A stretch of 52,438 nucleotides of DNA, taken from positions 1 to 52,438 of the IMG/VR virus record IMGVR_UViG_3300023179_000147; one strand, written 5' to 3'. This stretch comes from a virus (Duplodnaviria > Caudoviricetes). The notes under the pieces were generated by a model. That model saw only the letters and a program-made list of their open reading frames with translations, did no database searches and was not told where the DNA came from. The position numbers and the translations under genes were made by a program. Below, one piece after another: positions 1,604 to 51,788 of this stretch (the first letter of the stretch is position 1; each line of letters opens with the position of its first letter).

Positions 1604-4600
1604 TTATGAACAGCGCGAATTACCGCAATTTTTGCAGGTAAGACAACCCTCCTGATAGACGAGGCCGTCTTCTACTCCACAGGAAGCGCAAGTCTTATCT
1701 GACGCTGACTTAGTGCCATCGGGGATGTAGCTCTTCAACACTCGAGCCAGAGCCCTTGAGAAGCTGTACATATCACTATTCTTGTCCTTCTGCAACTGCT
1801 CACAGACATAGCTGACAGGAACTCCATGTCGCAGGGCAAGTGAAATCGTACGGGTCACTGCACCGTGATTGGGATTGTCGAATAGCTCGACCACATTCTT
1901 GAAGAGTAAGTGATCGTCATCTCCCACTGGGATTGAAAGATTGTATGTTGCGACTCCGTCCTTCTTGCCGTTCTTGAGAAGTGTGCCGGCCTTCGACTTC
2001 TTGGGCACCTCGACGTGTTGTGATAGTCCGCAGAAGACCTCATAAGGCTGCCCGTCCATCTTACCCACCAGGACGAGGTACGACTCTGAGCCATCGTGTC
2101 CACGCACGTTTATTCTATGAATATCACAAGGTAGTTCCTTTGGTCTCTTTGGCGCATGATTTTCTGTGATGGTCTTGGGTTGACCGTCAACTTTCGGCTC
2201 CTCTTTCTTGGGTGTATCGGCTACAAGGACTCCGCTTCGACAGCCGTCACGATAAACTGTGACGCCCTTGCAACCTGTCTCCCACCCCCTCATGTAGATG
2301 TCCTTAACAACATCGACGGTAGTAGAATTTGGAATGTTAGTCGTATTGCTGATTGAGTGGCAGATCCACTTTTGTGCCGCCGCCTGAAGATCGACCTTCT
2401 TGACCCAATCGATCTCATTCGCTGTGCCACCCGCATAGGGAGATTCATTGGCTTGTGCCTCGGTCTTGTGGTTAACATCCATCCACTTCTTGAAGGCGTG
2501 GTGGTAAACCATATATTCCTGCCACTTGTCACCGAGCTGGTCGACGAAGTCGACACGGACGCTTGGGTCATCACCGTTAACCTTCTTGCGCCTCTTGTAG
2601 AAGAGCATGAACGCAGGTTCGATGCCTGAGGTGGTTTGGGTGAGGACTGAGACCGAACCTGCAGGTGCCGTTGTGGTGAGTGCAATGTTGCGGCGACCAT
2701 ACTTGGTGTAAGCAGCAGCTAGATCCTCATCCTGAGACGTGACCTGCTGGATGAATGGATGGTCCTGTTCAGCTTTGAGATCGAAGACGGGAAATGCTCC
2801 ACGTTCCGCAGCCATCTGGACTGATGATTTATATGCGTTGACTGCCAAGGTGCGGTAGACTGTCTCCGTCATTTGAATGGATTTATCAGAACCATAGACG
2901 AAGTTCATGGCAGCCAAAGTGTCACCGAGAGCTGTGATGCCGAGGCCGGTGCGGCGGCCGTTGATTGCAGCCGTCTTGATCTTGCCCCATAGTTCGAGTT
3001 CTCCTCGCTTCACGTCATCGGGTTCAGGATCATTTTGAATCTTGGAGATAATCTTGTCGACAGCTTCCAACTCCAGATCGATGAGGTCATCCATTAGTCT
3101 CTGCGCCTTCTGCACCGCCTCGTTGTAACCCTTTTGGTCGAAGGATGCAGCAGACGTGAACGGATTATTGACGAAATTGTAGACATTGACGAGTAGGAGG
3201 CGGCAGCTGTCATACGGACTCAGGACGATTTCTCCGCAATTTTCGCTAAGTACTTGTATTTGTTCATTATTGTCTTCTTTCCATCCACCGAAGAAGAAAT
3301 TGTGAACATCATCGACTGTTCCGTTATACACGTCTTCGTGTCCATCGAGCTCAACAGATATGACGCGGTGATTGTGAAGCGAAGCCTCAGACTTCAGCTT
3401 CTTCCACGATGAGAAACCATTTTTTGTTCCTAACCTTGCAGAAACGTTGTTTGTCTTACACAGCTCTTCCCACTCACTGCGTAGTGGGTCTCTTCCGAGA
3501 TCAAATCGCAGCTTCGTATAGACATTCAGCTGATCAATTCTTTTCTTCGTACCTCTTTCTTCGTGCAGCTTCTGCAGTGTTGCTGCTCGAACAGAGTTTT
3601 TACCTGCCTTGCGATTCGCATAATAGTTTGAGCATGAATGACCGCAGAAAGAAATCTCTCTCCTGTCATACGCGAGCCAGAAGTTATTTTCACACCACTC
3701 ACACTTCTTCTCAATTTGCAACTCTTTATCCAAGATTCTCCACGTGTATCCTGACTCTTGAGCTTCGAGAGCTCGTGAAGCTGTTCGTGGATCTGCAGAT
3801 GTCAGCTCGCTTGCAATACCAAGATCATCAGAAATCTCAGCTGTGACCTGCGAGAATTTCTTGCCGCCGAGTCTAAAAGAGTTCAAAAGCCTAGGCAATG
3901 AATTTTGTGCAGCATAGTTCTCCCAGTCACCGCCGCTTGGACGACGACCCAGAGAAGAAGCGAGAGCTTTAATGTGATTCATCAGTTCTTCATTGCTAAC
4001 ATCGTATGCTCTTGGATTATTTTCCCCCGAGACGGATTGCGACATCTTTGCGGAGTATGCGGATAACCTCGCAGGATCTGCTTTGATCTTAAAGATGGGG
4101 TTTTTCTCGCCTCTCATCATAGAAGCATGTAGTTCCTGATGGGCTTTAAATTCCATACACTTCAAATTTTGAAGACGATTATCTTTTGAGTTAAAGTTAA
4201 CATGGTGGATGACATGCCCAGAAGGCACAGCGCCATTATGAAACTCCCAAATCAGCCTGTGCTCGGAGCGAGAGCCTGTGCTGTTTTCGATCGTCACATA
4301 GTGATTTGGATTATTAGTTCTGATAGTTGGGCTTATTTCTACGAGGGTACGCTCAGTGCGCTTTGAGATCATCAACTGATCTCCTGGTTGTAGATCCTGC
4401 ACTGTCTTCCGTGTTCCGTCACGAAGTATCATCGTGTGGTTGCCGGTCGCCTTGAAAGTGTGGCCTCCTTCGATCGTGACTTTGTAGATGGGCATCTTCT
4501 CGCCAGTGCGACGCGGGTTCCTCATGGTCTTTACAACGATCCTACCCGTGTCATTGTCGTGAGCATAGACTGGCACGTCCAAGCCAGCAGCAGCTAGGTC

Positions 4601-50138: not shown

Positions 50139-50354
50139 TTACATTCCTGAAATTATTGACATGACTGCTGTCTTCACACGCTCTTGTAGCTCACGGGGCA
50201 ATGCAGAGAGCAAAATATAAGACTCGGATCTAACGCTCTGTTCAGGAACACCCTCAGAAAAAGAACTGAGGGTAGGAACCATCACGCGCAAAGTGATGGG
50301 TGGTGGACTCTTGTCCGAAATGAGAGTATCGTATAAATCTACTTTATTAGACAT
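50139..50354 (-). CDS. Hypothetical protein
   Basis: 71-aa ORF starting 2 nt after the upstream stop. Confidence 0.65.
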   Translation of the reverse strand: MSNKVDLYDTLISDKSPPPITLRVMVPTLSSFSEGVPEQSVRSESYILLSALPRELQERVKTAVMSIISGM

Positions 50355-50356
50355 GT

Positions 50357-50542
50357 TTAACCCTTGAGAAGTGATTTGGCTTCGTTCAACGCTTGTGATT
50401 GAGCAAAGAAACGCTGTCTTAGCCCAGTAAGCAATTCATTCAACTTGTGGACACCCGCCAAATCGCCAACAGCGTTACACTCGGCAAGAGCCGCCTCCGC
50501 CTTCTGGATCTCTTCTAGTAAACTGTGATTGGTTGCTGACAT
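50357..50542 (-). CDS. Hypothetical helical protein
   Basis: Start at ATG 50542 with GAGGA SD; the longer track ORF runs into the tmRNA. Confidence 0.65.
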   Translation of the reverse strand: MSATNHSLLEEIQKAEAALAECNAVGDLAGVHKLNELLTGLRQRFFAQSQALNEAKSLLKG

Positions 50543-50563
50543 ATTTCCTCTTCTCTTTAATTG

Positions 50564-50934
50564 TGGAGGTGCCCGGAATCGAACCGGGGTCCAACACAAC
50601 TCAATCATACTCCTCTTTCACAGGCTTGGAATGGATTTATCGACACCATCCTCGTCTAGAGAGTTCCAGGTTTATACCTCAGCCCGGGGCTCTCAACCTA
50701 AAAGGTCCTGGGCACCACCCTCCCAGGAAATCCACCCCAAACAACGGGGGGTAACTGCATTGTCTGGAACAATTCTTTTTCTAGGCTGTTCCCACCCATT
50801 CCTCAGGCCGCGAGGGCGAGAGGAGAGAGGCCGTTATCGTTGGCATCTAACGCCACTTGGATTGAAACCGGATCCTCGTGCACCGGTGCCTGCAGATTAT
50901 GCTCTTGTTGCGCTGTCGAAACCTTTTCACCCCC
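50564..50934 (-). ncRNA. ssrA: tmRNA (one-piece, 371 nt), tag ANDNGLSPLALAA
   Basis: 5' GGGGGTGAAAAGGTTTCGAC; 3' T-arm CCCGG-TTCGATT-CCGGG then CACCTCC-A; 7-bp acceptor stem with the G3-U70 alanine identity pair. Tag frame 50844..50803 with UA at -5/-4. CCA is not encoded (CAA). Confidence 0.96.
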
Positions 50935-51181
50935 GAGATTTTCTTGACTTTGCTTTATTTATGTTGCTCAGATCATCCTTTAGAATTTGAATCTTGCGAG
51001 ATTCACTCTCTGTCCAGTTCTTGAACAACAGACTCTCAGCCTTCTCCTGCTCTTTCTCAAGAGCAGACAGGATGGGTTTCTTTAACTTTTCTAGAATAGC
51101 AGCATTGTCTGCTGCATCGGCTGATCTAACAAGAGTCTCATAGACTCTCAGCAGCTCTTCGGGCGCTAGTTGTACATTCAT
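50927..51181 (-). CDS. Hypothetical protein whose stop codon lies within the tmRNA 5' end
   Basis: 84-aa helical ORF; ATGA overlap with the upstream gene; ends TCT CGG GGG TGA. Confidence 0.75.
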   Translation of the reverse strand: MNVQLAPEELLRVYETLVRSADAADNAAILEKLKKPILSALEKEQEKAESLLFKNWTESESRKIQILKDDLSNINKAKSRKSRG

Positions 51182-51735
51182 TCATCTTCTCCCGATGCTT
51201 GGAATCCCACACATGACCCCTGGGTAAAGAACGACGTCCACTGCTTTGGAAGCTTCTTTGCAATTTCAAATGTGTGGTATGATTCACCATCATATAGTGC
51301 AATCTTGCCTTCCCCACAGACGACTGCAGTGATACCTTCGATGATAACAGTCGAGTCATCGATCAGGGCATCGACCTTATTCTGATCGTCTTCGGTGATA
51401 TCAAACTCAAGTGTGACTTTATCACCAGTGGGTGATTTCACAAAGATGGGCTTAAGTCCATGTGCAGCTTCAGGTGTAACAAAGTAATCATAGTTAACAT
51501 ACTCTTCTGAGTCTTCATCATCTGAGTAGTCATCCTCTTCAGGAGGTCCATCGTCTTCATCGGATGAAGCAATTTCGCCCGTTGATTCTTCAGAATCATC
51601 AGGCTGCAGCACAGAATCAGCTAGCTCACTGAGAATTTCAAGAGCTTGTGATTGATGTTCACCCAACCCCTCGCCCGCTGTATTGTGGAATAGGATCCCG
51701 TATAGGAAGAGTGCTTCTTCTTTTGAGAGTTTCAT
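51178..51735 (-). CDS. Hypothetical acidic protein
   Basis: 185 aa, AGGAG SD, D/E-rich tract. Confidence 0.75.
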   Translation of the reverse strand: MKLSKEEALFLYGILFHNTAGEGLGEHQSQALEILSELADSVLQPDDSEESTGEIASSDEDDGPPEEDDYSDDEDSEEYVNYDYFVTPEAAHGLKPIFVKSPTGDKVTLEFDITEDDQNKVDALIDDSTVIIEGITAVVCGEGKIALYDGESYHTFEIAKKLPKQWTSFFTQGSCVGFQASGEDE

Positions 51736-51763: not shown

Positions 51764-51788
51764 CGGGAGCGCCATCCATGCGCTCCCG
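51764..51788 (-). terminator. Intrinsic terminator
   Basis: CGGGAGCGC..GCGCTCCCG hairpin followed on the minus strand by ATTCTTATTT. Confidence 0.6.

What the first reader, a model, noticed from the sequence alone, without database searches (positions are those of the whole stretch)
50927..51181. Upstream gene's stop codon is inside the tmRNA acceptor stem: maturation would create a non-stop mRNA, a self-tagging circuit
Seen: the 84-aa ORF ends TCT C|GG GGG TGA, and mature tmRNA nt 1-8 (50934-50927) are GGGGGTGA, so its last codons and stop are the 5' acceptor strand. The ORF looks real (ATGA coupling to the upstream gene), and I see no separate promoter in between. Known: RNase P cuts at tmRNA +1, and stop-less mRNAs are tmRNA substrates whose products are tagged for proteolysis. 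Inference: processed transcripts yield a tagged, degraded protein while unprocessed ones yield a stable protein, and ribosomes terminating there would also block stem folding. The protein level could thus report RNase P/trans-translation capacity, similar in logic to arfA but built into the tmRNA gene itself.
Basis: partly seen in the sequence, partly recalled or inferred. Interest (0 to 1): 0.85.

Follow-up and report, generated by a model that had tools for sequence, protein, structure and literature searches.

The report
Phage gene's stop inside tmRNA
A real small gene of a large freshwater phage ends on a stop codon that lies inside the neighbouring tmRNA gene, but its relatives stop before the tmRNA, so the overlap looks like tight gene packing rather than a built-in regulatory circuit.

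Summary
A tmRNA lies at 50934..50561 (-), and an 84-aa ORF (51181..50927, -) ends TCT C|GG GGG TGA, so its stop is tmRNA nt 6-8.

The ORF is a real gene:
- Its codon usage is gene-like.
- Against an 89%-identical relative it shows 15 synonymous and 7 non-synonymous codon changes.
- It has 30 homologues.
- The AlphaFold model is confident.

It sits in a conserved block: ORF185, ORF84, an RNA-gene slot, ORF61, ORF71.

The overlap is not conserved:
- One homologue stops directly against +1 of a 97-99% identical tmRNA.
- One stops 6 nt before the tmRNA (L228).
- A complete 298-kb relative has tRNA-Gln in the slot and no tmRNA.

An unrelated 69-aa family upstream of phage tmRNAs behaves the same way. 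Its stops run from -672 to +41, and 59 of 77 lie inside the tmRNA.

The idea that tmRNA maturation makes a non-stop mRNA is already published for Carsonella smpB-ssrA (PMC4131195).

Verdict: a side effect of tight gene packing. A non-stop mRNA is physically plausible but untested, and a selected self-tagging circuit is not supported.

The parts
50561..50934 (-). Phage-borne one-piece tmRNA (ssrA). The tag is ANDNGLSPLALAA. The 3' end encodes ACAA, not ACCA.
   Evidence: ARAGORN 50563..50934. Rfam RF00023 82.3 bits, model 1-374. Acceptor stem GGGGGTG/CACCTCC with G3.T and T-arm GGTTCGATTCC read.
50927..51181 (-). 84-aa gene (ORF84, P0001). Predicted as a short helix plus one long helix with a K/R-rich tail. 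Function unknown.
   Evidence: ORF list. Codon log-odds +0.257 per codon in frame, against -0.18 to -0.89 in the other five frames. 15 synonymous and 7 non-synonymous codon changes against a relative. 30 homologues. AF2 pLDDT 86.5, helices 7-19 and 23-83. No Pfam or PHROG family.
50927..50934 (-). The 8-nt overlap: tmRNA nt 1-8 (GGGGGTGA) are also the last codons and stop (C|GG GGG TGA) of ORF84.
   Evidence: Read directly. Coordinates.
51178..51735 (-). 185-aa acidic gene (ORF185). It is the first gene after the hairpin, and its TGA overlaps the ORF84 ATG (ATGA at 51181..51178).
   Evidence: Homologues sit in the same position in L228 (31% identity, E 1.7e-20) and L229 (24%, E 7.6e-10).
51186..51193 (-). 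Shine-Dalgarno-like GGGAGAAG. Its GGGAG core ends 7 nt before the ORF84 ATG.
   Evidence: Read.
51764..51788 (-). Terminator-like GC-rich hairpin followed by a T-rich run, 28 nt before the ORF185 ATG. It probably marks the upstream border of the transcription unit, or is a leaky terminator.
   Evidence: 9 pairs, 8 of them G-C. Sequence.
50357..50542 (-). 61-aa downstream gene (ORF61, MSATNH...). Its ATG lies 18 nt after the tmRNA 3' end, and its RBS (GAGG at 50550..50547) lies in that spacer.
   Evidence: A homologue in L228 (33% identity, E 4.2e-6). L229 has an ORF in the same position that also begins MSATRE, but it fell below the BLAST threshold.
50139..50354 (-). 71-aa gene (ORF71), the last member of the conserved block.
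   Evidence: Homologues in L229 (51% identity, E 5e-24) and L228 (45%, E 4e-14).

Best explanation
ORF84 is a genuine small helical protein of a freshwater jumbo-phage lineage. It belongs to a conserved gene block: ORF185, ORF84, one RNA gene, ORF61, ORF71. In this genome, and in its closest relative, the gene has no stop codon of its own. It ends on the TGA that most tmRNAs carry at nt 6-8. The overlap is an evolutionarily labile by-product of tight gene packing and of insertions and deletions in an unconstrained K/R-rich tail. It is not a conserved device. The tmRNA is probably made from the same polycistronic transcript. RNase P cutting at +1 would then leave an upstream mRNA with no stop, and some ORF84 protein would be tagged (...KSRKS plus tag). 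That would be a tolerated side effect. Shown here: the anatomy, that the gene is real, the conserved gene order, and the variable stop position. Inferred: co-transcription, the RNase P cut and the tagging.
For: Anatomy.

The gene is real: codon usage, 15 synonymous against 7 non-synonymous codons compared with X3 record 8, whose 7 changes are exactly those of P0002, 30 homologues at E <= 0.001, and AF2 pLDDT 86.5.

Gene order is conserved in L228 and L229.

Stop position relative to the RNA gene, within the family:
- +8 in the window and in P0002.
- 0 in the P0005-type locus. The flanks of X3 record 6 and X6 record 15 translate to VQQNRNAKK*, which is the C-terminus of P0005. All 3 of the 3 flank differences are synonymous, including TAG to TAA. 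The tmRNA there differs at only 4 and 12 positions.
- -6 in L228.
- -72, before a tRNA-Gln, in L229.
- By C-terminal peptide alone, P0013 (KGMK*) and P0009 (GDEKVSTQ*) appear to read 13 and about 27 nt into a tmRNA in the other two frames. This is inference.

L229's genome is rated 100% complete and has no tmRNA over the Rfam cut-off.

An independent family behaves the same way. A 69-aa ORF unrelated to ORF84 (hhalign probability 1.7%) lies just upstream of phage tmRNAs in 80 loci. Of these, 77 could be classified. The stop lies inside the tmRNA in 59 (33 at +8, 10 at +10, 2 at +13, 7 at +27, 7 at +40/41), abuts +1 in 4, and lies 4-672 nt upstream in 14. The class changes at least 19 times on a tree, with 9 changes between inside and outside.

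No sigma-70 promoter lies between ORF185 and the tmRNA.
Against: - The overlap is kept in the one close relative (P0002, 92% aa identity), and two more homologues end in RG (P0016, P0025), so +8 may recur.
- Junctions are kept very tight. In 74 of 77 loci of the 69-aa family the stop lies between -10 and +41. Even stops at 0 or -6 would sit at the very 3' end of an RNase P product, so a functional link between the upstream cistron and tmRNA maturation is not excluded.
- No substitution is listed in the last 25 codons of ORF84 between the window and the 89% relative, while 24 are listed in the first 59 codons. This could reflect an extra constraint such as an internal promoter or a processing signal. 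That table was truncated (92 rows not shown), so the absence is uncertain.
- There are no RNA data. Transcription, processing and tagging are all untested.
Confidence: 0.7

Rival explanations
1. Selected self-tagging or sensor circuit. RNase P processing turns the ORF84 message into a non-stop mRNA, so the level of stable ORF84 protein reports RNase P or trans-translation capacity, as arfA does.
For: The anatomy allows it. ORF84 is real and coupled to the upstream gene. No promoter was seen between them. The overlap is retained in P0002. Upstream ORFs reaching into a phage tmRNA recur in an unrelated family (59 of 77). arfA shows that regulation through a non-stop mRNA exists (PMC3989581, passages read).
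Against: - The arrangement is not conserved among homologues. Stops lie at 0, -6 and -72, and a complete relative has no tmRNA at all.
- In the 69-aa family the inside or outside state changes at least 9 times.
- The overlapped residues (RG) are dictated by the tmRNA, and family tails vary freely in length, with proteins of 79-109 aa.
- ORF84 has no link to any ribosome-rescue function: no Pfam or PHROG family and no structural match at E <= 0.001.
Confidence: 0.1
2. Separate transcripts. The tmRNA has its own phage-specific promoter inside the 3' part of ORF84. Most ORF84 mRNA and most tmRNA precursor would then be different molecules, and the overlap would have little consequence.
For: Jumbo-phage promoters cannot be recognised with the scan used (one search covers sigma-70-type sites only). 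No listed substitution falls in the last 78 nt of ORF84 against the 89% relative, although 24 fall in the rest. P0001 and P0002 are identical in residues 53-84 but differ at 7 of residues 1-52.
Against: No sigma-70-like site was found there. The recalled T4-type late-promoter octamer is absent from the whole window, and its one-mismatch form inside ORF84 occurs once against 0.70 expected. No repeated motif suggesting a phage promoter was found. Read-through transcripts from ORF185 and ORF84 would still be cut by RNase P. The difference table was truncated.
Confidence: 0.15
3. ORF84 is not a gene, and the open frame over the junction is a chance ORF.
For: It is short, and neither Pfam nor PHROGs has a family for it.
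Against: In-frame codon log-odds are +0.257, compared with 0.326 +/- 0.134 for true genes and -0.71 +/- 0.26 off frame. There are 15 synonymous against 7 non-synonymous codon changes, 30 homologues with a conserved core, conserved gene order, a Shine-Dalgarno sequence and ATGA coupling, and an AF2 pLDDT of 86.5.
Confidence: 0.02

Closest known systems
Carsonella smpB-ssrA overlap (Hudson, Lau and Williams 2014, PMC4131195; they credit Mao et al. 2009, which I did not read)
   Same: An upstream same-strand CDS runs into the tmRNA gene. [quoted passage not shown] The overlap is present in only about half of the strains, so it is labile there too (passages read).
   Different: In Carsonella the overlapped gene is smpB, the tmRNA partner, in a degenerate endosymbiont genome. 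Here it is a phage gene of unknown function next to a phage-borne tmRNA. The authors found the situation nowhere else among bacteria. In phage contigs it recurs.
CDS and t(m)RNA gene overlaps in bacterial genomes (same paper, section 17 and Table 4)
   Same: The same class: candidates for high-frequency non-stop mRNAs created by t(m)RNA maturation.
   Different: The class is rare in bacteria. There are 250 upstream-CDS overlaps among 115,660 t(m)RNA genes, about 1 in 15,000 mRNAs. In one phage family surveyed here, 59 of 77 junctions overlap. Phages were not part of that survey.
arfA regulation through an RNase III-made non-stop mRNA (review PMC3989581)
   Same: The same logic: a nuclease removes the stop, the product is tagged by tmRNA, and it accumulates when trans-translation is saturated.
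   Different: In arfA the cleavage hairpin lies inside the ORF and the arrangement serves the protein's rescue function. Here the arrangement is not conserved among homologues, and the protein has no known link to ribosome rescue.
Known phage-encoded tmRNAs (Bxz1, Bacillus phage G, Melnitz, huge phages)
   Same: Phage-borne tmRNA is established. It occurs in 402 of 18,146 phage genomes (PMC9004378), in huge phages (PMC7162821), and in Bxz1 and phage G (PMC4131195; confirmed).
   Different: In Bxz1 and phage G the tmRNA sits in a tRNA cluster. The nearest same-strand ORF of at least 50 aa ends 49 and 250 nt upstream, and no annotated CDS overlaps it. Here it is wedged between protein genes, with an 8-nt overlap upstream and an 18-nt spacer downstream.

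Membership tests
tmRNA (Rfam RF00023) | Covariance-model score above the gathering threshold over the full model | tested here: met
   82.3 bits against 47, model positions 1-374. Also called by ARAGORN.
tmRNA (Rfam RF00023) | tRNA-Ala-like acceptor stem with a G3.U pair, plus a T-arm | tested here: met
   GGGGGTG pairs with CACCTCC, with G3 opposite T. The T-arm is CCCGGTTCGATTCCGGG.
tmRNA (Rfam RF00023) | Internal tag reading frame with an Ala resume codon, ending in a hydrophobic ..LAA and a stop | tested here: met
   ANDNGLSPLALAA*, at positions 91-132 of the gene.
tmRNA (Rfam RF00023) | Charged with alanine and active in trans-translation | not testable with these tools
No SmpB gene is in the window, but the window is only about 15% of the genome.
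CDS/t(m)RNA overlap giving non-stop mRNA (class of Hudson et al. 2014) | A same-strand upstream CDS whose stop codon lies inside the mature RNA | tested here: met
   The stop at 50929..50927 is nt 6-8 of the tmRNA.
CDS/t(m)RNA overlap giving non-stop mRNA (class of Hudson et al. 2014) | The CDS is a functional gene, not a miscalled ORF | tested here: met
CDS/t(m)RNA overlap giving non-stop mRNA (class of Hudson et al. 2014) | CDS and RNA are on one transcript, and RNase P cuts at +1 | not testable with these tools
   No RNA data were available. No promoter was seen between them, but phage promoters cannot be scanned for.
arfA-like regulatory circuit based on a non-stop mRNA | The stop-removing arrangement is conserved among homologues | tested here: not met
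   Homologues stop at 0, -6 and -72, and a complete relative lacks the tmRNA.
arfA-like regulatory circuit based on a non-stop mRNA | Protein level or activity depends on trans-translation capacity | not testable with these tools
   This needs expression in ssrA, smpB or clpX backgrounds.

The most novel reading that the evidence does not exclude
In several unrelated phage lineages a small gene is kept tightly against, or running into, the 5' end of the phage's own tmRNA. Maturation of the tmRNA by RNase P would then routinely remove or expose the upstream cistron's stop codon. Under this reading the phage exploits the arrangement. It would either tie the level of a small helical protein to the host's RNase P and trans-translation capacity, or supply its tmRNA with a built-in first substrate. 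The exact stop position would be free to drift because any position from about -10 to +41 gives the same outcome.
Probability: 0.1. Interest if true: 0.7.

Novelty: new member of a known kind. Interest (0 to 1): 0.35.

Why it matters
If RNase P does cut these co-transcripts, phage tmRNA loci would be natural cases in which maturation of the rescue RNA creates its own substrate. That situation has so far been discussed only for Carsonella and was judged very rare in bacteria. The comparative data here argue that it is tolerated rather than selected.

Two practical points follow. Gene callers should neither trim nor discard ORFs that run a few bases into a phage tmRNA. And the natural variants with stops at -6, 0, +8, +13 and +27 form a ready-made series for testing how close to an RNase P site a stop codon can lie and still work.

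Tried and rejected
- **Single-protein locus searches.** ORF84, ORF185 and the 456-aa neighbour found no relatives in viral contigs. P0002 found none in metagenome contigs. The full 31-row alignment was too diverse for the search for related loci, so an 8-row subset was used.
- **DNA searches.** blastn of the region against named phages gave no match. The tmRNA 5' pattern in metagenome contigs gave 0.
- **Host identification.** The back-translated tag gave 0 hits in genome contigs. The T-arm and acceptor 29-mer hit 2 Omnitrophota MAGs and 1 Acidimicrobiales MAG, all with unrelated tags. The host stays unresolved.
- **Expression.** No RNA holder was listed. All four runs laid were DNA contigs, so no ends or levels could be read. 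Stretches of the region without contig cover in those runs carry no meaning.
- **Promoters.** The sigma-70 scan, a recalled T4-type late-promoter octamer and a repeat search gave nothing usable.
- **Function of ORF84.** PHROGs and Pfam gave 0 families. ESM Atlas gave no hit above 0.77 and only generic helical structure neighbours. Foldseek against BFVD gave 0 matches at E <= 0.001.
- **Survey cleaning.** The apparent ORFs running 60-78 nt into the tmRNA in L057, L129, L048 and L050 were rejected. Their translations contain GSIP.TST, the reading of a tRNA-like T-arm, so they cross the upstream piece of two-piece tmRNA genes. L080's 200-aa ORF, which reads through the tag in GC-rich DNA, was treated as spurious. 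The L010 68-aa ORF (24-nt overlap) has no relatives in viral contigs, so its conservation could not be tested.
- **Closed or failed tools.** Paper supplements were not seen and might list CDS/tmRNA overlaps.
- **Literature.** Three full-text searches listed no paper whose title or abstract concerns an ORF overlapping a phage tmRNA. The tmRNA passages read in PMC9004378 and PMC7162821 do not mention one.

Full report
**1.

- ARAGORN finds one tmRNA in the window, at 50563..50934 on the minus strand, with tag ANDNGLSPLALAA.
- Rfam's tmRNA model matches 50561..50934 over its full length at 82.3 bits, against a gathering score of 47.
- The minus strand reads ...AAA TCT C|GG GGG TGA AAAGGTTTCGAC.
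- The 84-aa ORF 50927..51181 therefore ends on the TGA that is tmRNA nt 6-8.
- The first seven bases pair with CACCTCC at 50571..50565, including the G3.T wobble. This fixes +1 at 50934.
- The ATG of the ORF overlaps the TGA of a 185-aa ORF (ATGA at 51181..51178), and GGGAG lies 7 nt upstream.
- The next gene starts 18 nt after the tmRNA 3' end.
- A sigma-70 scan found no promoter on this strand between 51735 and 50934. It did find a terminator-like hairpin at 51788..51764, just before ORF185.

**2. Context**

- The window is an IMG/VR virus record rated 15% complete.
- It carries DnaB-like helicase, UvsX-like recombinase, SSB, DNA polymerase, adaptor and baseplate genes.
- Its best named relative by helicase is only 37.5% identical.
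- It is therefore a fragment of a large, unnamed phage.
- DNA contigs identical to it occur in run X2, labelled freshwater metagenome (share 0.70, pieces with 0 differences). Run X1, lake water, may be the source.

**3. ORF84 is a real gene**

- Its in-frame codon log-odds are +0.257 per codon. Windows of 84 codons in long genes give 0.326 +/- 0.134, and off-frame windows give -0.71 +/- 0.26.
- One contig (X3 record 8, 767 nt) covers 50892..51662 with 84 differences. Of these, 24 are listed inside ORF84. They change 22 codons, 15 synonymously and 7 not.
- The 7 non-synonymous changes are exactly the substitutions of P0002, the 92%-identical 84-aa protein found in the protein database.
- A full HMMER search found 30 homologues at E <= 0.001, with 29-92% identity and lengths of 79-109 aa.
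- The family shares a core of about 75 residues and has a variable K/R-rich tail.
- AlphaFold2 on that alignment gives pLDDT 86.5, with a short helix (7-19) and one long helix (23-83).
- No family or fold match names a function.

**4.

Two viral contigs carry homologues in the same gene order as the window, together with homologues of ORF185, ORF61 and ORF71.

- **L228.** The homologue is 87% identical to P0013. It ends TAA, then six bases follow, then a tmRNA begins. That tmRNA scores 55.2 bits in Rfam at 1804..2177, is identical to the window's at 289 of 372 aligned bases, and has tag ANDNGSSLLALAA, read.
- **L229.** The slot holds a tRNA-Gln, and the homologue stops 72 nt before it. The genome holding L229 is 297,894 bases with terminal repeats, is rated 100% complete, and has no tmRNA above the Rfam cut-off.
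- **P0005-type locus.** Two contigs (X3 record 6 and X6 record 15) match the window only over 50561..50934, which is exactly the tmRNA, with 4 and 12 differences. They diverge on both sides.
  - Their upstream flanks translate to VQQNRNAKK followed by a stop that abuts +1.
  - That peptide is the C-terminus of P0005, a 41%-identical homologue of ORF84.
  - The two flanks differ at 3 positions. All three are third-codon positions, including TAG against TAA.

The verified stop positions in the family are therefore +8, +8, 0, -6 and -72. From C-terminal peptides alone, P0016 and P0025 (..RG) fit +8, P0013 (..KGMK) fits +13, and P0009 (..GDEKVSTQ) fits about +27 in the other frames. These last four are inferences.

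**5. An independent family shows the same pattern**

It revealed a 69-aa ORF ending on the same TGA in four loci.
- This ORF is unrelated to ORF84 (hhalign probability 1.7%).
- It looks protein-coding. Mean pairwise differences at codon positions 1, 2 and 3 are 0.28, 0.23 and 0.50.
- Its alignment retrieved 92 relatives, of which 80 loci were kept. Of those, 77 could be classified. In 7 of the 77 the tmRNA start was placed by motif because the locus was cut short.
- Stop positions:
  - +8 in 33 loci
  - +10 in 10
  - +13 in 2
  - +27 in 7
  - +40 or +41 in 7
  - 0 in 4
  - -4 in 2
  - -10 in 9
  - -60, -61 and -672 in one each
- On a quick, poorly resolved tree of the conserved core, the class changes at least 19 times, and inside against outside changes 9 times.
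- In cultured phages Bxz1 and G, and at two loci of the 484-kb uncultured phage LR756508, no convincing upstream ORF reaches the tmRNA.

**6. Interpretation**

- Adjacency of a small gene to the tmRNA is conserved. The overlap is not.
- The two overlapped residues (RG) are dictated by the tmRNA, and the family's tails are free to vary.
- The simplest reading is tight packing plus drift of the stop among the first stop codons available in each frame of the tmRNA. TGA at 6-8 is the commonest because it matches the tmRNA consensus.
- tmRNA 5' ends are made by RNase P (abstract of PMC3985003, seen in the listing). If the block is one transcript, the upstream fragment would end ...AAA TCT C with no stop, and ribosomes on it would be substrates for trans-translation. 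This is inference from established knowledge, and nothing here tests it.

**7. What is already known**

- Hudson, Lau and Williams (PMC4131195; passages and section 17 read) describe smpB running into ssrA in about half of the Carsonella strains.
- They state that tmRNA maturation should give a non-stop smpB mRNA, and they call it a feedback situation.
- They count 250 upstream-CDS overlaps among 115,660 bacterial t(m)RNA genes.
- arfA is the experimentally proven case of regulation through a non-stop mRNA (PMC3989581, passages).
- Phage tmRNAs are known (PMC9004378 and PMC7162821, passages).
- Three full-text searches listed no paper about an ORF overlapping a phage tmRNA, and the passages read do not mention one. 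Supplements could not be seen.

**8. Verdict**

- The regulatory reading fails its own conservation test.
- What remains is a new, phage-borne member of a published class, plus the modest new point that such overlaps are common in some phage lineages.
- Interest is 0.35.

Noticed in passing
window 50561-50934, compared with contigs of runs X3 and X6: Two contigs carry a tmRNA with only 4 and 12 differences from the window's. Similarity stops exactly at both ends of the tmRNA. Their downstream flanks also differ from each other. The tmRNA looks like a conserved anchor, or an exchanged cassette, in a hypervariable region.
   Followed up: partly
L229 1834-1907 (298-kb complete viral contig): In a syntenic relative the slot between the ORF84 and ORF61 homologues holds a tRNA-Gln(ttg) instead of a tmRNA. 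That genome has no tmRNA above the Rfam cut-off.
   Followed up: yes
L025 from 842, L047 from 5860, L105 (minus strand); also L224 (LR756508.1 414804-414915, 58 bits): Very short tmRNA-like elements of about 65-112 nt. They have the tmRNA 5' motif, a T-arm and a 3' acceptor strand, but no room for a tag frame. They resemble the TLD-only tmRNA of mycobacteriophage DS6A mentioned in PMC4131195. In L025 and L105, upstream ORFs of 71 and 134 aa run 24 and 37 nt into them.
   Followed up: no
L132-L211 (80 viral loci): A conserved 69-aa ORF family (MWKVYKY...PLGVIIKK..) lies immediately upstream of a tmRNA in these viral contigs. It has no Pfam family (one member scanned, L132) and no tblastn match in named phages. 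Its constant pairing with the tmRNA may mean a functional link.
   Followed up: partly
window 50561-50564: The tmRNA gene encodes ACAA after the acceptor stem rather than ACCA, so the 3' CCA would have to be completed after transcription.
   Followed up: no
window 50803-50934: Read from tmRNA +1 in frame 0, the sequence stays open into the tag reading frame and stops at the tag's own stop at +132. An upstream ORF in that frame would end with the tag peptide.
   Followed up: no
window 51178-51735; L228 875-1501; L229 839-1504: ORF185 and its homologues have long acidic D/E runs. In L229 these form a DQDQDEDEDE repeat. The gene always precedes the ORF84 homologue with an ATGA overlap.
   Followed up: no
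L010 3868-4074: A third, unrelated phage contig has a 68-aa ORF, ATGA-coupled to its upstream neighbour, that runs 24 nt into a tmRNA (tag GENNLALAA) in frame 0 and ends ..GGEKVST*.
   Followed up: partly
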